A stretch of DNA of 57,585 nt. It comes from Escherichia phage vB_EcoS_SP8. This document shows, in pieces, positions 17,645 through 25,734 of the stretch. The position numbers and the translations under genes are program-made. The stretch's first letter is position 1; every line of letters starts with the position of its first letter. Location: sequence record MT682705.1; one strand, 5' to 3'. The notes beneath the pieces were generated by a model. That model searched no databases, had not been told where the DNA came from, and was given only the letters and a program-made list of their open reading frames with translations.

Positions 17645-19243
17645 TTATGTCCCCACAGTCTTACCGATACTACCGCCACGCGCTTCGTTGGCTACGCGAT
17701 AACGAGCTTCGTCAGCAATGTGGTCTTCAGAATCAGTATCGACATCATCAAGATCATCTTCGTCTCTGGCAAGAGTTGGAACAAGATCTATAAAGTGATG
17801 ACAGTTGTCAAAAATAAACATAGAAGGTCTTTCACGTAAAGCGGCAACCTTAGGATCCGGAATTGAAGCAGCTAAGTATTCCCGCATTCGTTTCCAACCT
17901 GCTTTACGAGATCCAGGGGATTTATCACTTCGAATCCACTGTACACCAGGATAAGACCGACCATTGATAGTTATTGGTTTAGACATTGTTGCTGCGGTAC
18001 TGTTACCATCCTTAACGTCCCAAATGCTGTTATCAGCAGGGCCTGGAACTACACGACCGTATAAACCAGCTTCAATTTCCCTGACGATGATACCACGAGC
18101 AATTTCAGAATCCAATAATCTTAAACCTTCGTTCGGTTTCCCGTTAGTACCATACCACTCCATGATCCTAAATAAGTCACCTCGTACTGTTCGTACACGA
18201 CGCCCGTTTGGATACACGATATCGCTACCATCACTTCTTGCCCACCAACCAACAGAAAACGGTTTACTTGAGCCCCAGTCAAATGATCTATCAATTCTCC
18301 AGGAGTGAGGTATTGGGAATGGTTTGACCACATGTATATTCTGGCGCCACAGGTCATCGAACATACCACCGGACGTAATATCCCAGCTACCACCGAGCCA
18401 CGCCATGCGGAGGTTAGGATCGTCAATGTTTACAAGCTGTGCAACATACTCAGGTGTTAAGTTGCGGTTCTCTCTGTATGAACCAAATATATGACAGCGA
18501 GTGCGAACTACGTCTTCCCGTTTCTGTGTACGCGGGTTGAATACGTTCGTTACTTCCTTCTTCATTGACCCAAGCGGGCAAGAGTTAATAAAATACTTCT
18601 TGACCCAGTTATGCCCAACTCCAAATGGGTTAGTCGTAGAAAAGATTTGCAACGGTAAAGGTGGCAGTATGAACTGCATTGCGTATTCGTGGTCCGGTTG
18701 AACAAGCACAAGACGCCCAGTTCTCCGATACACATCACCGTCAATAATTATCGGGTTTTCTTCTGCAACAAAGGATGTACGGTTACAGGACTTCATTGCT
18801 TCATAAAGCCCACTGTCAGGATATTTAGTTAATTCGTTCCATCCAATAAATGGAAATTCCTGACCGTGGTACAGCCAGTAATCCTTAGGCTTTTTAGCAA
18901 CACGGAACATTAGTTCTTCGCCGCTAGGCCATACCCATTTATAATCTGACTTGGAAGATAAGAACTTACAACCGTCATTAAATTCAGGAAACCAACGCTG
19001 TGACTTTGCAACTAAGTCATCTAAGTTTTTGTATTCTCGGTCAAAAATGATACCGCGCCAATGTTTACCGTACCCCATACCAACATAACGACGAAAACGC
19101 ATCAACTGAGCATCGGTCTTTCCAGGGCCACGAGTACCATGATATAAAATCTCATCTGCTGGACAACTCAGTGCCAGTACCTGAGATCCTGGATGTGGTT
19201 TCCATACTACCTTAGTGGACGGTGTTTGAATCATTGAGTCCAT
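17645..19243 (-). CDS. terL: terminase large subunit
   Basis: 532-aa ORF with N-terminal P-loop-like segment (LYHGTRGPGKTDA) and position upstream of portal. Confidence 0.75.
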   Translation of the reverse strand: MDSMIQTPSTKVVWKPHPGSQVLALSCPADEILYHGTRGPGKTDAQLMRFRRYVGMGYGKHWRGIIFDREYKNLDDLVAKSQRWFPEFNDGCKFLSSKSDYKWVWPSGEELMFRVAKKPKDYWLYHGQEFPFIGWNELTKYPDSGLYEAMKSCNRTSFVAEENPIIIDGDVYRRTGRLVLVQPDHEYAMQFILPPLPLQIFSTTNPFGVGHNWVKKYFINSCPLGSMKKEVTNVFNPRTQKREDVVRTRCHIFGSYRENRNLTPEYVAQLVNIDDPNLRMAWLGGSWDITSGGMFDDLWRQNIHVVKPFPIPHSWRIDRSFDWGSSKPFSVGWWARSDGSDIVYPNGRRVRTVRGDLFRIMEWYGTNGKPNEGLRLLDSEIARGIIVREIEAGLYGRVVPGPADNSIWDVKDGNSTAATMSKPITINGRSYPGVQWIRSDKSPGSRKAGWKRMREYLAASIPDPKVAALRERPSMFIFDNCHHFIDLVPTLARDEDDLDDVDTDSEDHIADEARYRVANEARGGSIGKTVGT

Positions 19244-19763
19244 TTAAAGTATCCTCTTGCAGCTTAGTCTGAGACTCCCCAGCAACTTTTTCCCAATCAT
19301 CCATAGAACCAACCATAGGAACCAGCATAACACCAGTAGATACACCAACATCCATCTTCTGTTGCTTAGGAGCTTCAAATCCAAAGATGCTACATAATTG
19401 TTTATATGCAGCAACACGAGCAGCTTGAGAAGATCCAGGTCCACGATAAGTGGATTCAAATCTAAGACCTTCAATAATGCGCTGGCGCTCTTGTTCTATT
19501 TCATATTTGCGGTCACGTTCAGCACTTCTTGCTTTCTGCTGTTGAAGTTCTTTAATTCGCCTTTGGCAATAGCTATCATCCTGAAAACGTTTAGCATAAT
19601 CAAACGCCATTGCGGAGCTCATGCCTACACGTTTACACGCATTAACCCAATCATAATCGAACAGATATTCTTCAACGACAGAGTCACGTATAGCCATCTC
19701 GTCTTTAGTGAGATCAGCTTCGTATTCAATGCTACGTGTCCAAGGTAGAATAGGCTTTACCAT
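19212..19763 (-). CDS. putative terminase small subunit
   Basis: ORF immediately upstream of and overlapping terL; start at ATG (MVKPILPW) preceded by GGGAG. Confidence 0.4.
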   Translation of the reverse strand: MVKPILPWTRSIEYEADLTKDEMAIRDSVVEEYLFDYDWVNACKRVGMSSAMAFDYAKRFQDDSYCQRRIKELQQQKARSAERDRKYEIEQERQRIIEGLRFESTYRGPGSSQAARVAAYKQLCSIFGFEAPKQQKMDVGVSTGVMLVPMVGSMDDWEKVAGESQTKLQEDTLNGLNDSNTVH

Positions 19764-19892
19764 AACGTTACTCCCGTCGATTCTTGACACGAATATAAGC
19801 GGTGGATTAATTAATTGCAAGGGTTATAACAAATGTCAATAAAAAGCCCGCTCGATATAAATTCAAGGAGCGGGCTTTACTTATAAACCAAT

Positions 19893-20135
19893 CTACATTT
19901 CCGCTTTAGGAATGTACGTTATCTCCCGGATGTCTTGTTTGATTTGTTCAACCTTATTGACCACATAAACAGGTGGTGTTGAAGGTTGCAGGTTTGCCCT
20001 GTGTTTCTTGTGCATCTGATCAATTGCGATAGCACTGACTCCAATTTGTGCAAGTCCAATCATCATATAGATGAAAAGCAATCGCGGTTTCTTACACAAT
20101 ATAAGAAGATCATTGATGAAGTGACGCATAATCAA
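19893..20135 (-). CDS. small membrane protein, lysis-associated (possible antiholin or spanin-like)
   Basis: 80-aa ORF with one hydrophobic segment (LLFIYMMIGLAQIGVSAIAI) adjacent to holin-like gene. Confidence 0.3.
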   Translation of the reverse strand: MIMRHFINDLLILCKKPRLLFIYMMIGLAQIGVSAIAIDQMHKKHRANLQPSTPPVYVVNKVEQIKQDIREITYIPKAEM

Positions 20136-20440
20136 CCTCTTTCCTTTTCTCGGTCACATGCTTCTGTCTTTCTCCGTAGAAACTTTAGCATGGTTCTTGA
20201 ACCGGACCAAGATAACACGCCTATGAACGCCCCACTGAGCCCAAGTGAGACACCATGTTCCACGTTAATTACACCTATCAAGAAACCAAAGAATGCAGAA
20301 AAAGCACCCTCTTGAATGAAGACACTAAGTCTGAACCTTTCTTTAGCATCATGGGTTCTTGCAGCGTAGCCAAGGGAACCCCCTACCATCGCAATGGCAG
20401 TGAGAATAAAAACTATATTCCAATCCCAGTTCGGCGACAC
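20132..20440 (-). CDS. putative holin
   Basis: 102-aa ORF with three hydrophobic segments and a charged C-terminal tail (KFLRRKTEACDREKERG); adjacent to endolysin-like gene. Confidence 0.45.
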   Translation of the reverse strand: MSPNWDWNIVFILTAIAMVGGSLGYAARTHDAKERFRLSVFIQEGAFSAFFGFLIGVINVEHGVSLGLSGAFIGVLSWSGSRTMLKFLRRKTEACDREKERG

Positions 20441-20453
20441 TTATAACCTCTTA

Positions 20454-20888
20454 CTATGCCATGTGAATACCCGCGAGCAAAACTTCATCAGAATAAGGTT
20501 GCACACCGTTCTCATGTTTGATAATCGCTTTCACGATCGCAAGCATGATTTTATCATCGGTCACTGAAATCGGCTGTTCTGCACCAACACCACAAGCCTT
20601 AGACACAGATTGAATATAGGCTTCAGTGTTATTTTCATTCGGCGGAGCCCAGCGCGAAATAATTTCCCGTACAGTGTCAATCCCTTTATTTCCGACACGC
20701 TTCATCCCTTCGCGGTTGCGGTAGTTTAGTAAAATACGCGCAATGGCGCGAATACCGTATTTTACATCGATAAATTGACAAAAAGAACGATCGGTCCGTT
20801 TGTCTTCAGGAACAAGACCTTTCCAATTATCACCCCAACGAATATTTCCCGGATTGTTATTCCGGATACCTCGTGGTTGCACAGTCAT
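20454..20888 (-). CDS. putative endolysin (peptidoglycan hydrolase)
   Basis: about 144-aa ORF between spanin and holin genes; start at second ATG (MTVQPRG) preceded by GGAG; family not identifiable by eye. Confidence 0.4.
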   Translation of the reverse strand: MTVQPRGIRNNNPGNIRWGDNWKGLVPEDKRTDRSFCQFIDVKYGIRAIARILLNYRNREGMKRVGNKGIDTVREIISRWAPPNENNTEAYIQSVSKACGVGAEQPISVTDDKIMLAIVKAIIKHENGVQPYSDEVLLAGIHMA

Positions 20889-20978
20889 AAAAAGCTCCAT
20901 TCAGTTAAACCGAATAGAGTATAGTTGAATTATCACATGCACACAATCAATTATGTGCAATTAAGATTGAATGTTTAG

Positions 20979-21323
20979 TTACGCAACCCGGCAAGGACTT
21001 TGCAGTTTATCACTTTTCTTTACGCGGATTTCGCATTGCATCATACTGTAGTTCGCACTGCTCTCCGGCAATACGATACTTTTCAGCCTCTTCTGCCACT
21101 TGTCTGTATTCTGTGACGCTTTCTGAATACAGCTCGGTGAGCACACGGGCGATCTGGGCGGTTGTCTTGCTGTCGGGCTGAGGGCCGGTAGCGTCACCGA
21201 GGTACTTACGGACGGTTGCGATTTCGTTGTGCAACCTGTCATTAGTAGCGCGATAATTATTAAGATCGGCAACCAAAGATTCAATACGAGATCTGTACTG
21301 ACGTTCGATAGTGTCTTTCTCAT
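20979..21323 (-). CDS. putative o-spanin (outer-membrane lipoprotein, Rz1-like)
   Basis: ORF in alternative frame overlapping the 3' part of the i-spanin gene; lipobox-like LLMTGC after a hydrophobic stretch; Pro/Ser-rich mature part. Confidence 0.45.
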   Translation of the reverse strand: MRKTLSNVSTDLVLNLWLPILIIIALLMTGCTTKSQPSVSTSVTLPALSPTARQPPRSPVCSPSCIQKASQNTDKWQKRLKSIVLPESSANYSMMQCEIRVKKSDKLQSPCRVA

Positions 21324-21510
21324 ACACTCTTCGTTTCTCCTCCTCGAAATCAACCTCTTTCTGAGTTTCTTTTTGGTACGACACACCGGCATCGAAACCC
21401 TCCTTTCTAGCTGATTCTATGGCATTGTCATAAGCCCAGTTGGCTAGAATAACAATTATGACAAGTGGTATCCAAGGTGCAACAATACCAATTATTCTTC
21501 TAAGGAACAT
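21010..21510 (-). CDS. putative i-spanin (Rz-like)
   Basis: 166-aa ORF with N-terminal transmembrane segment and charged helical remainder; overlapped by lipoprotein ORF. Confidence 0.5.
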   Translation of the reverse strand: MFLRRIIGIVAPWIPLVIIVILANWAYDNAIESARKEGFDAGVSYQKETQKEVDFEEEKRRVYEKDTIERQYRSRIESLVADLNNYRATNDRLHNEIATVRKYLGDATGPQPDSKTTAQIARVLTELYSESVTEYRQVAEEAEKYRIAGEQCELQYDAMRNPRKEK

Positions 21511-21719
21511 ACTTTGTCACCAACCCCCATAGACAAGTATTGGATAGCAAGAAGAAAGGCTATAGCATCTTTCGTATCCCCTAGATCTTTAAGAGTCTTA
21601 AATTTATCTTCAAGTTGCTGTACATGCTTTTCAAATTGTGGCAAAGCATCAATCTCAGCGGCAGCTCCGCGCATATACACTCTTGCAGCGGCTAATTGCT
21701 CATTTGTAGGATCGCTCAC
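21492..21719 (-). CDS. hypothetical protein
   Basis: 75-aa ORF, overlapping start/stop arrangement with neighbours. Confidence 0.3.
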   Translation of the reverse strand: MSDPTNEQLAAARVYMRGAAAEIDALPQFEKHVQQLEDKFKTLKDLGDTKDAIAFLLAIQYLSMGVGDKVCSLEE

Positions 21720-21907
21720 GATGTTCTCCAGATTACACTGTTTCGAATTTCATCATTCCAAACGTACTTCCCCTTCTCACCGTTTTTATAGGATGGAACA
21801 GAGAAAACGGAGGAACTTGGATACAAATCCGATGTTGTTAAGCGTATACGCTTACCGTCAAAAGGTCCACCAACACAAAGGAACAGACCGGTCTTAGGTT
21901 TCTTCAA
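21716..21907 (-). CDS. hypothetical protein
   Basis: 63-aa ORF in minus-strand operon. Confidence 0.3.
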   Translation of the reverse strand: MKKPKTGLFLCVGGPFDGKRIRLTTSDLYPSSSVFSVPSYKNGEKGKYVWNDEIRNSVIWRTS

Positions 21908-22368
21908 AATGGTTTCTCCTCGATTTTACACTGCGCCACTTTAAGAGTATAGGCTACGTCATAGAACTTAACCCCTTGACCACAACTGTCGCAATATACG
22001 CACGCCAGTCGTACTGCCTCTTCGGCGGTGCAACCTCCCGCCATTGCACCCATCAAGAACTCAAACGCACCACCTTCTGCAATAAATTCGTTAGTGTCCG
22101 GTAGACCTAATTTACCATCCCCGTAAATAGGATATACGACAAGTTCCTGCGTCACGGCAATACCATAACGGGAATCCGGATTTAAGTCCGAAAAAGGTTC
22201 TTTACGTCCACGAACCGTAGTCTTCAGATGGTCTATAATATCAGTTACAGGACGTAGTTTACCAGACATCGCAACAAGACAAAGTCCAATTCCTGGAATA
22301 TTGACAGTATGAACTTTATCCGTAGTTGTTGCAATATTACCCCATGTAACCTGACGATCTACAGCCAA
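21904..22368 (-). CDS. hypothetical protein with Ntn-hydrolase (HslV/proteasome)-like C-terminal pattern
   Basis: segment FIAEGGAFEFLMGAMAGGCTAEEAVRLACVY resembles the Gly-rich region of HslV-type Ntn hydrolases; weak by-eye similarity only. Confidence 0.3.
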   Translation of the reverse strand: MAVDRQVTWGNIATTTDKVHTVNIPGIGLCLVAMSGKLRPVTDIIDHLKTTVRGRKEPFSDLNPDSRYGIAVTQELVVYPIYGDGKLGLPDTNEFIAEGGAFEFLMGAMAGGCTAEEAVRLACVYCDSCGQGVKFYDVAYTLKVAQCKIEEKPF

Positions 22369-22754
22369 TATACCATTACGATAAGCAATTGCGGTCGTAT
22401 TAGACGCCCATATATGTGATAAATTTTATAAGCAGTGGAAAGACCGATATTAAACTCTTTCGCTGCAACCTGAAATCTATTCTCTTTACCAGTGTAATTC
22501 CTAAGAAATTGATAAATTTCCTCTTTATCCAAGTGCCTGTTTCGCACAAGTGTAGGGGACCCAAGCCGGCGCATTTCGGGCGTAGTCGCGAATCTCCGCT
22601 TGATCTGAGCTACTGTACCAACGTACCAATACTTTGCCCCATTTTGCCCAATAGCCGCGTGTACGCATCGCGGCGTACCTGTTTTAGCGAACTTACGCTT
22701 TGCAAATTCACACGCGAGTTCTGCATTGTCAAAACGTTGCAAGCTCATAATCAA
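22359..22754 (-). CDS. hypothetical protein
   Basis: 131-aa ORF in minus-strand operon. Confidence 0.3.
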   Translation of the reverse strand: MIMSLQRFDNAELACEFAKRKFAKTGTPRCVHAAIGQNGAKYWYVGTVAQIKRRFATTPEMRRLGSPTLVRNRHLDKEEIYQFLRNYTGKENRFQVAAKEFNIGLSTAYKIYHIYGRLIRPQLLIVMVYWL

Positions 22755-23191
22755 CCCGGCAATATAATTTCGTAATCAATCAGGAAAGACCGCAGAGGAT
22801 ACGCCAGATCATTACCCTCTGCAACGTGGTCATAGGAATAGTATTGTTTCCCTTGCAGACCTTTACATGGGTCATATACCTTAACATCGCCGAAGCGAGC
22901 GTCAATAATGATCTGATGGAAAAGCCCAGGTAACTGCAAAGAGGGTACAGTCGCAAGATACAAGCGCCCAGGTCGGATCTGGTGCATACCGGCAGTGATA
23001 TGCGGCTGCGCAAAGACACCGTATCGATATAGATAACTAGCAACATCAATATGTCCATGAATATAATCATTTGTGAACTCGTCATATACCTGCTCAGGAT
23101 CTTTGTCAAGAAGCATAGCAAGGCAGGTAGGAATGCAAGCCATTATGCTTTTCTGAGTTTTATGCTTGATTGGATCGTTGATAGTAATCAT
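22751..23191 (-). CDS. hypothetical protein with papain/C39-like cysteine peptidase motif
   Basis: KSIMACIPTCLAMLL resembles the catalytic Cys context of C39-type peptidases; downstream His residues present. Confidence 0.35.
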   Translation of the reverse strand: MITINDPIKHKTQKSIMACIPTCLAMLLDKDPEQVYDEFTNDYIHGHIDVASYLYRYGVFAQPHITAGMHQIRPGRLYLATVPSLQLPGLFHQIIIDARFGDVKVYDPCKGLQGKQYYSYDHVAEGNDLAYPLRSFLIDYEIILPG

Positions 23192-23529
23192 TAGAACACT
23201 TCCTTAAACAAATCAAATTTAACATGCTCGTAGATTTTATTCAGCTGAGTTAGCTTGCGAATAAACTCTTTACTGGTATTCTCGTCAATTGCACAAGTAT
23301 CGGTCTGGATCTTCCATGTGTCGGAGCGCAAACGAAGCAAGAATGACCCGTTCGGATAAACCGTCTTCGCTTCGGGCATATAGTGCAAAATGCAGGATAT
23401 CGTTCCATCAGGTGGTATAAGAACAATATAAGTGTCATTCACATCTGTGTGACTAATAATCCAACCACTTTGTAATAAAGCATCACGAAGCTGGCAATAC
23501 ATTTTCGGAATAACGATATCTTTGGCCAT
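23191..23529 (-). CDS. hypothetical protein
   Basis: 112-aa ORF. Confidence 0.3.
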   Translation of the reverse strand: MAKDIVIPKMYCQLRDALLQSGWIISHTDVNDTYIVLIPPDGTISCILHYMPEAKTVYPNGSFLLRLRSDTWKIQTDTCAIDENTSKEFIRKLTQLNKIYEHVKFDLFKEVF

Positions 23530-23894
23530 TATTGCACTTCCACAATTAACAATTCACCATGACGTTCACGAGCGAGATTATATAACTCTTGTTTCTGCCC
23601 AATACTTAATTCGCAGTCAAGAATCGCAATATCACAATGGAAGCCGCTCGTACGAATAACAGTGTCTTCATACGAATCCCTGCGATGAGCGACCAAACGA
23701 AGATGGAAACGATCAAACTGTACCACAGATGACTCGCGCGACAATTGTACACACCGAACAAACTCAGCATCTTCGCGCAACACTTCTTCGAGCTTCCGGC
23801 GATATTCGTTAGCAGGACATAAAACAAAAGCGACACGATCGTCTTTCAGCTGTGGTCGTAAGATAGACCAGACTTTAACTATATTCTTGTTCAT
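23529..23894 (-). CDS. hypothetical protein
   Basis: 121-aa ORF. Confidence 0.3.
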   Translation of the reverse strand: MNKNIVKVWSILRPQLKDDRVAFVLCPANEYRRKLEEVLREDAEFVRCVQLSRESSVVQFDRFHLRLVAHRRDSYEDTVIRTSGFHCDIAILDCELSIGQKQELYNLARERHGELLIVEVQ

Positions 23895-23979
23895 ATAAAC
23901 CCCTTTAACGTTAACGGAATAACTATAACAGGATACGCAAGTTGATTAACATAGCCGGCCGCAACAATTAGTGACCACA

Positions 23980-24267
23980 TTAAGGCAACGTGAACCAACC
24001 TAAGTTCTGCGCACCGAGCAACCATGCGTACACAATCAGTGAACCTAAAATAAGTACACTAAAGAAGTTCGCTTTCTTGCGTTTGATGTTTGCAGCTTGT
24101 GGGTTGCATACACACCATACGAAGAAATGTTTAACAACTAAATATGCAAGCGAAATGATAACAGCGTAACGCATAAACGGTACATACCAGATCACAAGAC
24201 CTAATATAATTGCAAGGATCCAGTTGATACCTAGCCATATTGCACTACTGAAGGCCAAAACGAACAT
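23980..24267 (-). CDS. small multi-pass membrane protein
   Basis: 95-aa ORF, almost entirely hydrophobic segments; strong RBS GAGGAG; first gene of the minus-strand block. Confidence 0.4.
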   Translation of the reverse strand: MFVLAFSSAIWLGINWILAIILGLVIWYVPFMRYAVIISLAYLVVKHFFVWCVCNPQAANIKRKKANFFSVLILGSLIVYAWLLGAQNLGWFTLP

Positions 24268-24415
24268 AATAGATCTCCTCTCGAGTATTTACATACGGAA
24301 TTAACTTTATACGAACAATATAGGGCAGGTGAGGTGAGGATATAAAGTGTCTAGTGACGAGATAATCTACAAATGATGAATCCTTGGCAGAGATCTAAGA
24401 GCCGCCCCGCGGCGT

Positions 24416-24488
24416 TACTATAACGTCCCGTGATCGTCAGTGAGGTGATTGTTACGTCATGTGACTGTCATGCGCTCTACTATAACGT
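24416..24488. repeat. direct repeat TACTATAACGT (2 copies about 62 bp apart) in divergent control region
   Basis: read directly in the 24.27-24.87 kb non-coding region; GTGAGGTGA also occurs twice nearby. Confidence 0.5.
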
Positions 24489-24620
24489 TGTTTATTGTTA
24501 CACGCGTTATTATTTTTTATTTGATTAGTGTGCTATCTATTACATGACTATACTATACCGTCCAGTGTAATTACATCTGTTACTATCCACCTGCCCACTA
24601 TATGCTGTCTATGTATGTGC

Positions 24621-24690
24621 TACCTGGTATTTCCGGCGTGTGCTGTTACCTGGTATTTTCAGCACGCTCGCGCTACCTGGTATTTCCGGC
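24621..24690. repeat. three direct repeats TACCTGGTATTTCCGGC at 26-27 bp spacing
   Basis: copies at about 24621, 24647 and 24674 (middle copy with 3 mismatches); upstream of the early promoter. Confidence 0.6.
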
Positions 24691-24768
24691 ACACCATCTA
24701 CTGCATAGTCCCGGATGTTATTATTATGAAACACAACTAAAAAAGTTCTAAAATATTGCAGATAATAG

Positions 24769-24797
24769 TTGCATCTGATACCCTGCTGTCATATTAT
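24769..24797 (+). promoter_or_regulatory. candidate sigma70-type early promoter
   Basis: TTGCAT, 17-bp spacer, TATTAT; followed by a 5' UTR hairpin (AAGCGGG...CCCGCTT) and RBS GGGAGA before the ATG at 24873. Confidence 0.45.
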
Positions 24798-24872
24798 AAA
24801 TGCGTAGGGTAAAGGGGGTTTTAAAGCGGGACACGGGTTCCGCGCCCGCTTCACCCGAAGGGAGATTGCATT

Positions 24873-25178
24873 ATGTCCATTATCTACTTACCGCGTTCTA
24901 TGTCCCAGTCCATGATCACCAAACGTATTATCGGCAAGCGCCTGTATCAGCTGGACCTTACTGCGGAAAAAGTCGACGGGGATTGGGGTTTCGACGAGTA
25001 TTTAGTAATGCTCCCGGGCAACGAAAAGTATTCCAGCACCCCGTTATATATTCGCATTAATGAGGACGGTACTGTTAGCTCTCACGCTGTAATGTACGGC
25101 CGAGCAGTATGCCAAGCGAATAGTCTTTGGTCTGTGTTCTGCTTTATTACAATGATAGCGAAGGCCATTCAACAATAA
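24873..25178 (+). CDS. hypothetical early protein
   Basis: 101-aa ORF, first plus-strand gene; RBS GGGAGA. Confidence 0.45.
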   Translation: MSIIYLPRSMSQSMITKRIIGKRLYQLDLTAEKVDGDWGFDEYLVMLPGNEKYSSTPLYIRINEDGTVSSHAVMYGRAVCQANSLWSVFCFITMIAKAIQQ

Positions 25179-25192
25179 TAGCGTGCTAATGG

Positions 25193-25233
25193 TTGCCCAT
25201 TGTAACAGTGGGCTCCCACTAGCAATCCGCTAG
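25193..25233 (+). promoter_or_regulatory. conserved intergenic hairpin element, copy 1
   Basis: TTGCCCATTGTAACAGTGGGC then GCAATCCGCTAG; near-identical copy at 26738-26779. Confidence 0.4.
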
Positions 25234-25254
25234 AACAACATGGAGATATTCACA

Positions 25255-25734
25255 ATGGTTACTATCACCCGTGTAGCAAAAGACGCTCGCTTCTTCGCCA
25301 CTATGTCTAACGCTCGCCGCGCCTTGAAAAAGGTTCTGGATGTAGACACAGCGACAGCTAACAGCTTTATTCACCAGGAACCGCACGAAGACGGTGGCCG
25401 CTACTGGTTCAGCGAAAGCGCCGTTAATAAGGCGGCTAGCGATCTGGTTGAAGCTGATAAAGCAACTGTCGTGGAAGTGACCACACAACAAGCTCCGGTC
25501 GCTCCCGCTAAAAGTAAAACGCGCAGCGAAACGCGCAACGGGGTCCGTCGCCCGATCAAAGGTAAATGCGCAGACGTTTGGAACGCTCTGGATAACATGT
25601 TACCTAATGGTGTGCCAACTATTGGTAACGTCCGTGACCTTGCGAAAGCTAATGGCTGGAATATTAATAACGCAACGATTGAATTCTACGCATGGCGTAA
25701 ATTCAACGGGCTCAATAATAAAGAGGGCAATTAA
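25255..25734 (+). CDS. hypothetical early protein
   Basis: start at ATG (MVTITRV) preceded by GGAGA. Confidence 0.4.
   Translation: MVTITRVAKDARFFATMSNARRALKKVLDVDTATANSFIHQEPHEDGGRYWFSESAVNKAASDLVEADKATVVEVTTQQAPVAPAKSKTRSETRNGVRRPIKGKCADVWNALDNMLPNGVPTIGNVRDLAKANGWNINNATIEFYAWRKFNGLNNKEGN

What the first reader, a model, noticed from the sequence alone, without database searches (positions are those of the whole stretch)
21904..23191. Two peptidase-like proteins in the late region next to the lysis cassette
One ORF has a Gly-rich segment resembling HslV/proteasome-type Ntn hydrolases, and the adjacent region includes an ORF with a C39/papain-like Cys motif (ACIPTCLAML). Neither is an obvious morphogenetic protease by position, since they lie outside the head module. 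They could act in lysis regulation, in processing host or phage proteins, or in anti-defence.
Basis: inference. Interest (0 to 1): 0.45.

Follow-up and report, generated by a model that had tools for sequence, protein, structure and literature searches.

The report
Phage proteasome-like and C39-like peptidase pair
This 9g-like coliphage carries two real but uncharacterised peptidase genes, a small proteasome/HslV-type threonine peptidase and a stand-alone C39-type cysteine peptidase. They form a conserved gene pair in this phage group, both belong to known families, and in this genome the proteasome-like gene has lost its ATG start codon.

Summary

The window is a Nonagvirus (97% identical to phages BRET and JenK1). 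Public records already annotate these genes as 'peptidase HslV family' and 'papain-like cysteine protease'. The order C39-like then PPH is kept across Queuovirinae and in Providencia phage PSTCR4, down to about 30% identity. Elsewhere each gene occurs alone and away from lysis genes.

A capsid-maturation role is unlikely. The head module is scaffold-only, PPH is frameshifted in phage 9g, and here a single T-to-C change turns the ATGA overlap into ACGA. That removes the PPH start codon and the upstream gene's stop codon together.

Function is untested. The most likely role is accessory cytoplasmic proteolysis of host or phage proteins. Interest is moderate to low: these are new members of known kinds.

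The parts
22751..23191 (-). orfC: stand-alone C39-type (clan CA, papain-fold) cysteine peptidase homologue, 146 aa. Predicted catalytic residues are Gln13 (23155-23153), Cys19 (23137-23135), His92 (22918-22916) and Asp107 (22873-22871).
22359..22754 (-). orfB: small conserved protein with a weak resolvase-type HTH at its C-terminus. It is 117 aa in relatives. Here it is read through to 131 aa because its TGA stop (22397-22395) has become CGA.
   Evidence: phrog_17085, E 9e-81. Pfam HTH_7 E 0.12, below threshold. Junction alignments. Found only in Nonagvirus loci.
21904..22398 (-). orfA: PPH-type proteasome homologue (Ntn threonine peptidase fold), 164 codons. Key residues are Thr2 (22395-22393), Asp14, Lys28 and Gly46. 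Residue 110 is Gly, where close relatives have Ser.
   Evidence: phrog_1040 'peptidase HslV family', E 5e-31. AF2 pLDDT 91.7 with one helix (48-58) between the sheets, so H2 is absent. Foldseek to HslV 1m4y E 6e-7 and BPH 5ovt E 2e-6. T2 and K28 are invariant, and M1, D14 and G46 are at least 98% conserved in 81 relatives. PPH family definition from PMC8665760.
22396..22398 (-). Position of the ancestral ATG start of orfA, which is ACG in this window. A T-to-C change at 22397 on the coding strand also destroys the overlapping TGA stop of orfB (ATGA becomes ACGA).
   Evidence: All 9 aligned relatives have ATGA and the window has ACGA. The change is unique to the window in 4 pairwise comparisons. 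The next in-frame start is TTG at 22368, which would delete Thr2.
21716..21907 (-). s63: conserved 63-aa protein (motif C-V-G-G-P-F-D-G) that immediately follows orfA. It belongs to the conserved block; function unknown.
   Evidence: phrog_12090, E 2e-34. A homologue lies directly after PPH in L011-L021.
23191..23894 (-). Two conserved upstream genes of the same block: p112 (23191-23529, unknown) and p121 (23529-23894, weak sigma-factor-like).
   Evidence: phrog_21152 and phrog_17838. NCBIfam RNA polymerase sigma factor E 0.0016, far below its cut-off. The 9g annotation reads 'potential sigma factor'. Conserved upstream of the C39-like gene in L012-L021.

Best explanation
The region encodes two separate cytoplasmic peptidases of known superfamilies. 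In 9g-like phages (Queuovirinae) and a neighbouring genus they are inherited as a gene pair, at the promoter-proximal end of the long leftward operon and upstream of the lysis and packaging genes.

Shown: orfC is a stand-alone C39-type papain-fold enzyme with an intact Gln/Cys/His/Asp set. orfA is a PPH-type proteasome homologue. Its Thr would become the free N-terminal nucleophile once the initiator Met is removed, and it has the Asp, Lys and Gly partners.

Inferred: orfC makes site-specific cuts, by analogy after small-residue pairs such as Gly-Gly. orfA assembles into rings and degrades peptides or unfolded proteins. Both act on host or phage cytoplasmic proteins as accessory functions that improve fitness (host takeover or counter-defence). 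They are not capsid-maturation or core lysis enzymes.

In this particular genome orfA has ACG instead of ATG. It is therefore made at roughly 1% of the normal level or less, or as an N-terminally truncated and catalytically dead protein. orfB is extended by 14 residues.
For: Folds. Catalytic residues are conserved over deep alignments: C39-like (100 sequences, 25% mean column identity, only Q13/C19/H92/D107/P108 invariant), PPH (T2 and K28 in 81/81, D14 and G46 in 80/81, 78/81 begin exactly Met-Thr). Sequence links: 9/100 C39-like relatives hit Pfam PF03412, the profile's best PDB match is LahT150 with Q..C, H and DP aligned, and the PPH profile finds HslV and BPH weakly with PF00227 precomputed for some relatives. 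The PPH definition (about 140 aa, no propeptide, no H2, phage-borne) is and matches the model. Purifying selection is shown. Pair conservation: 14 of 20 PPH loci have the C39-like gene just upstream, including K4PH164, EC151, L011 and PSTCR4 where the two are directly adjacent. Not morphogenetic: the head has a scaffold plus an SPP1 gp13-like capsid protein and no protease, the PPH gene is frameshifted in 9g, and it has no start codon here. Not tied to lysis: the C39-like gene lies between the topoisomerase II subunits in Kuttervirus and among early genes in Shewanella phage S0112, and PPH lies among non-lysis genes in PEi21 and 4L372D. ACG initiates at about 0.1-1% of AUG in E. coli reporters.
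Against: There is no experimental or substrate evidence for either protein, and literature searches found no functional study. The window proteins themselves do not reach Pfam or NCBIfam thresholds. The loci that keep the pair are mostly one related clade, so synteny could reflect shared descent rather than functional coupling. Papain-fold and Ntn-fold enzymes also include amidases, transferases and ligases, so 'peptidase' is an inference. The ACG could be a sequencing error.
Confidence: 0.55

Rival explanations
1. Lysis accessory: orfC is a cell-wall peptide-stem endopeptidase or amidase that cooperates with the adjacent endolysin, spanin and holin, or the pair regulates lysis timing by cleaving a holin or antiholin.
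Confidence: 0.12
2. Counter-defence: orfC is a deconjugase or 'clippase' for Gly-Gly-linked ubiquitin-like modifiers, or it cleaves a host immune protein. PPH degrades the products or another defence factor.
Against: No defence-related family hit was found (PADLOC). No paper links these genes to escape from any defence system. The DUB-like matches are weaker than the C39 matches.
Confidence: 0.15
3. Virion or capsid maturation protease located outside the head module.
For: No recognisable prohead protease was found between the portal and capsid genes.
Against: The scaffold plus SPP1 gp13-like capsid architecture does not need a protease. PPH is frameshifted in the viable type phage 9g and has no start codon here. 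The C39-like gene also occurs in Ackermannviridae phages, which by general knowledge have their own T4-type prohead protease. The 9g capsid protein is annotated at 367 aa, which leaves only about 27 residues ahead of the capsid-family match and no long pro-region.
Confidence: 0.04
4. The two proteins are not proteases at all. They would be transferase, ligase or amidase enzymes built on the same folds, for example a connectase-like ligase (Ntn fold) or a BtrH- or phytochelatin-synthase-like acyl or peptidyl transferase (papain fold).
Against: The best matches for both proteins are true peptidases. The full proteasome triad and the full papain Gln/Cys/His/Asp set are conserved.
Confidence: 0.08

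Closest known systems
[quoted passage not shown]
   Same: It is a small single-domain proteasome fold with no propeptide (Met-Thr start). It has the Thr/Asp/Lys triad and the oxyanion Gly. Helix H2 and the C-terminal S12/H5 elements are missing. It is phage-borne in Proteobacteria.
   Different: It is 164 aa rather than about 140 (relatives have a median of 149). A direct match to the paper's representative sequence could not be run. The family's function is unknown, so membership gives no mechanism. The copy in this window lacks an ATG.
HslV (ClpQ), the peptidase of the HslUV ATP-dependent protease, and BPH
   Same: These are the best structural matches (1m4y E 6e-7, 5ovt E 2e-6, TM about 0.6). 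The N-terminal Thr nucleophile, Asp and Lys align.
   Different: Identity is only 15-18%. Pfam Proteasome (PF00227) is not reached. H2 is absent. No AAA+ partner gene lies nearby. Whether it docks onto host HslU is unknown.
C39 double-glycine peptidase domains of PCAT/AMS transporters (PCAT1, LahT150, ComA PEP)
   Different: It is a stand-alone 146-aa protein and is not fused to an ABC transporter. It is encoded by lytic phages, and no bacteriocin-like substrate gene with a double-glycine leader was identified. The window protein itself has no Pfam hit.
Pseudomurein endoisopeptidases PeiR/PeiW/PeiP and the C39-like N5 domain of mycobacteriophage LysA
   Different: Those enzymes carry wall-binding or additional lytic domains, and orfC has none. 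Homologues of orfC in other phages are not in lysis cassettes.

Membership tests
[quoted passage not shown] | Proteasome/Ntn alpha-beta-beta-alpha fold | tested here: met
   The AF2 model has pLDDT 91.7. 184 PDB matches have E <= 1e-3; the 50 listed are all HslV/ClpQ, BPH, Anbu or 20S proteasome entries.
[quoted passage not shown] | No propeptide: the catalytic Thr directly follows the initiator Met | tested here: met
   78 of 81 relatives start 'MT' and Thr is invariant. The window keeps the Thr codon.
[quoted passage not shown] | Intact initiator codon so that Thr becomes the N-terminus (in this genome) | tested here: not met
   The window has ACG where 9 of 9 relatives have ATG. The next in-frame start, TTG at 22368, removes Thr2.
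[quoted passage not shown] | Equivalents of Asp17, Lys33 and Gly47 | tested here: met
   D14 is present in 80/81, K28 in 81/81 and G46 in 80/81 relatives. They align to the HslV Asp and Lys in the profile match.
[quoted passage not shown] | Second helix (H2) and the C-terminal S12/H5 elements are missing; compact size | tested here: met
   DSSP on the model shows one helix (48-58) and then a loop (59-76) before the next strand. The protein is 164 aa.
[quoted passage not shown] | Sequence clustering with the published PPH representative (WP_042125023.1) | not tested
   The representative sequence could not be fetched with these tools.
HslV proper (HslUV protease subunit) | Pfam Proteasome PF00227 above threshold and an HslU partner | tested here: not met
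   There is no PF00227 hit. Identity to HslV structures is 15-18%. None of the seven ORFs scanned around it (21492-23894) has an AAA+ hit. The RefSeq name 'peptidase HslV family' is an annotation label only.
Peptidase C39 (MEROPS C39, Pfam PF03412) | Papain-like fold closest to C39 domains | tested here: met
Peptidase C39 (MEROPS C39, Pfam PF03412) | Oxyanion Gln about 6 residues before the catalytic Cys, plus His and Asp | tested here: met
   Q13, C19, H92 and D107 are invariant in 100 sequences and aligned to LahT150.
Peptidase C39 (MEROPS C39, Pfam PF03412) | Pfam model reached by this protein | tested here: not met
   The window protein has no Pfam hit even at E <= 1. 9 of 100 relatives hit PF03412 at E <= 0.01, the best at 2.4e-6.
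Peptidase C39 (MEROPS C39, Pfam PF03412) | N-terminal domain of a bacteriocin or peptide ABC exporter | tested here: not met
   It is a stand-alone 146-aa ORF. The listed family members are mostly 135-160 aa. No transporter gene is nearby.
Peptidase C39 (MEROPS C39, Pfam PF03412) | Cleavage after a double-glycine leader | not testable with these tools
   This needs biochemistry. No convincing double-glycine-leader substrate was seen in the neighbouring ORFs.

The most novel reading that the evidence does not exclude
The conserved module C39-like, PPH and the small s63 protein is a dedicated two-protease counter-defence or host-takeover system. The C39-like enzyme would clip a Gly-Gly-type site, for example a ubiquitin-like conjugate or a host immune or regulatory protein. 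The phage proteasome homologue would then destroy the product, possibly using host HslU as its unfoldase. This would give the first function for a viral proteasome homologue.
Probability: 0.1. Interest if true: 0.75.

Novelty: new member of a known kind. Interest (0 to 1): 0.33.

Why it matters
Phage-encoded proteasome homologues (PPH) were catalogued in 2021 as the first truly viral members of the proteasome family, but nobody knows what they do. The stand-alone phage C39-like family is large: about 690 clusters at 50% identity and 173 phage genomes. PHROGs still lists it as 'unknown function'.

The two genes are a conserved neighbour pair in a genetically tractable coliphage group, and BASEL phage Bas20 (FritzHoffmann), seen here, belongs to it. 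PPH is naturally knocked out in some isolates. Together these facts give a practical entry point for knock-out and substrate-finding experiments. As it stands, this is a sound annotation and not a discovery.

Tried and rejected
- Single-sequence searches against Pfam, NCBIfam, PADLOC and PDB gave nothing for either peptidase. Only profiles and structure prediction resolved them.
- I first suspected that the window-specific Ser110-to-Gly change in PPH hit the equivalent of HslV Ser124 and, together with the start-codon loss, indicated selected inactivation. I rejected this. In 81 relatives that column is Ser 37, Ala 32, Gly 4, so Gly is tolerated.
- A capsid-protease role was considered because the longest capsid ORF has about 70 residues ahead of the family match. 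I rejected it because 9g annotates a later start (367 aa) and the capsid is SPP1 gp13-like with a scaffold.
- s63 was considered as a double-glycine substrate of orfC because of its motif CVGG-PFDG. The leader is too short, Pro follows the Gly-Gly, and the upstream hydrophobic pattern is not conserved in L011. I left this as unsupported.
- The promoter and terminator scan of 19000-25300 found no more sites than shuffled sequence, so it gives no information on timing.
- The search for related loci with the 100-sequence alignment failed because no stretch was conserved enough. I used tblastn against phage genomes instead.
- Literature searches for functional work on these genes in Queuovirinae found none.

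Full report
**What the window is.** The 1.9 kb around the finding is 90-97% identical to 17 records of 9g-like coliphages and Salmonella phages (genus Nonagvirus, subfamily Queuovirinae). The best match is phage BRET at 96.9%. Some of those records already label the genes. RefSeq calls the first one 'peptidase HslV family'. Phage ESCO3 calls the two 'proteasome subunit alpha type-2' and 'papain-like cysteine protease'.

**Anatomy.** All real genes here are on the minus strand.
- Reading 5' to 3' along that strand: p121 (23529-23894, weakly sigma-like), p112 (23191-23529), orfC (22751-23191, 146 aa), orfB (22359-22754), orfA (21904-22398), s63 (21716-21907) and s75 (21492-21719).
- These are followed by the spanin, endolysin, holin, terminase, portal, scaffold and capsid genes.
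- The block therefore opens the long leftward operon, next to a divergent intergenic region.
- Antisense and overlapping ORFs have no family support.
- orfA, orfB and orfC all evolve under purifying selection, with dN/dS of 0.03-0.25 against seven relatives.

**orfA is a PPH-type proteasome homologue.**
- Pfam, NCBIfam and a single-sequence PDB search found nothing. PHROGs gives phrog_1040 'peptidase HslV family' at E 5e-31.
- A profile of 26 relatives weakly finds HslV, BPH and proteasome beta in the PDB (E 0.03-1.8). The Asp and Lys align with HslV's Asp17 and Lys33.
- The AlphaFold2 model is confident (pLDDT 91.7). Its Foldseek matches are HslV (1m4y, E 6e-7), BPH, 20S beta subunits and Anbu, all at prob 1.0.
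- In 81 diverse relatives, Thr2 and Lys28 are invariant and Asp14 and Gly46 are present in 80 of 81. Seventy-eight begin exactly Met-Thr, so there is no propeptide.
- The model has only one helix between the two sheets.

**The start codon is missing in this genome.**
- All nine aligned relatives have an ATGA overlap, in which the ATG of orfA shares bases with the TGA of orfB. The window has ACGA.
- One T-to-C change at 22397 removes both the orfA start and the orfB stop. orfB is read through for 14 extra codons.
- Apart from this and Ser110-to-Gly, the protein is identical to that of JenK1. The other 17 nucleotide differences are all synonymous, so the lesion is recent.
- Ser110-to-Gly is not significant. 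That column is Ser 37, Ala 32, Gly 4 across the family.
- ACG initiates at roughly 0.1-1% of AUG in E. coli reporters. The next in-frame start, TTG at 22368, would delete the nucleophile.
- Phage 9g independently carries a frameshift after about residue 58, and its annotated gene is an 84-aa remnant.
- PPH is therefore dispensable for plaque formation.

**orfC is a stand-alone C39-type cysteine peptidase.**
- There was no Pfam, NCBIfam or PDB sequence hit.
- An exhaustive HMM search finds 692 clusters at E <= 1e-3, and the 150 best listed are mostly stand-alone proteins of 135-160 aa.
- In 100 diverse members the only invariant columns are Gln13, Cys19, His92, Asp107 and Pro108. This is the papain arrangement of oxyanion Gln, Cys, His and Asp with C39 spacing.
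- Nine of the 100 hit Pfam Peptidase_C39. The profile's best PDB match is LahT150, with these motifs aligned.
- The model (pLDDT 93) places Cys19 at the start of a helix and His92 in a strand.

**Comparative context.**
- By tblastn, the C39-like gene is in 173 phage records and PPH is in 79.
- Fourteen of the 20 PPH-bearing loci fetched from metagenome and virus collections and from more distant phages have the C39-like gene just upstream. Among the nine named Nonagvirus genomes, a C39-like ORF was aligned in all nine, a full-length PPH ORF is present in eight, and 9g carries the frameshifted copy.
- The two genes are directly adjacent in L011, Klebsiella phage K4PH164, Enterobacter phage EC151 and Providencia phage PSTCR4 (genus Craquatrovirus). 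In Nonagvirus and Seuratvirus a variable small ORF separates them.
- orfB is specific to Nonagvirus. s63 follows PPH throughout Nonagvirus and in relatives at about 50% identity.
- Outside this clade each gene occurs alone. The C39-like gene lies between the topoisomerase II subunits in Kuttervirus, among early genes in Shewanella phage S0112 and near a holin in PMBT14. PPH occurs without it in PEi21, in 4L372D and in four metagenomic contigs.
- These loci are not phylogenetically independent. The pairing is suggestive of functional coupling but does not prove it.

**Function.** A capsid-maturation role is unlikely. The head has a scaffold and an SPP1 gp13-like capsid protein and no protease, and PPH is naturally inactivated in viable phages. 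A lysis role is not supported by context outside this clade, although the PeiR match and the LysA N5 domain keep it open for orfC. No defence-related family matches, and no paper addresses these genes. The promoter and terminator scan was uninformative.

My best reading, which is inference, is accessory cytoplasmic proteolysis of host or phage proteins. orfC would be a site-specific endopeptidase, by analogy cutting after Gly-Gly-like sites. PPH would be a ring-forming peptidase.

**Verdict.** Both proteins are members of known kinds and are already annotated as such in some records. The additions from this work are the precise family assignments, the conserved pairing, the corrected gene boundary and the start-codon loss.

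Noticed in passing
window 22395-22398 (minus strand): A single T-to-C change turns the ATGA start/stop overlap into ACGA. It abolishes the ATG of the PPH gene and the TGA of orfB, which becomes 131 aa instead of 117. The change is unique to this genome among 10 compared. It may be a real start-loss allele or a sequencing error.
   Followed up: yes
L001 (phage 9g, NC_024146.1) about 3203-3700: The PPH gene of the type phage 9g is frameshifted after about residue 58, and RefSeq annotates only an 84-aa remnant as 'peptidase HslV family'. This is a second, independent natural knock-out.
   Followed up: partly
window 24619-24690: Three direct copies of a 19-nt motif (GCTACCTGGTATTTCCGGC; identities 100%, 84%, 100%) lie 26-27 nt apart in the divergent intergenic region upstream of the leftward operon. 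This could be a regulator-binding array.
   Followed up: no
window 23529-23894 (minus strand): A 121-aa protein at the head of the block has a weak match to an RNA polymerase sigma factor model (NCBIfam E 0.0016, far below its cut-off). The 9g record calls its homologue a 'potential sigma factor'.
   Followed up: no
L033 (Aeromonas phage 4L372D) 2932-3483 and 3501-4385; L023 3659-4591: Some phages carry two adjacent HslV-family genes, one of them 294 aa with a C-terminal extension. An IMG/VR contig has an open frame of 311 codons (stop to stop) with an N-terminal PPH domain. [quoted passage not shown]
   Followed up: no
L026 (Salmonella phage SeF6a, Kuttervirus) 2911-3441: The C39-like homologue sits between the genes for the two DNA topoisomerase II subunits, overlapping both. 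This is a replication-gene context unrelated to lysis.
   Followed up: partly
window 21716-21907 (minus strand): A conserved 63-aa protein with the motif C-[VI]-G-G-P-[FY]-D-G always follows PPH in Nonagvirus and in relatives at about 50% identity. Its function is unknown.
   Followed up: partly
L009 (phage JenP1) 1191-1484: JenP1 has an extra ORF of about 270 bp inserted between orfB and PPH. The slot between the two peptidase genes is therefore a variable insertion site.
   Followed up: no
window 20979-21392 within 21010-21510 (minus strand): An o-spanin-like ORF (phrog_11621) is embedded out of frame in the i-spanin gene. This is the classic Rz/Rz1 arrangement.
   Followed up: no
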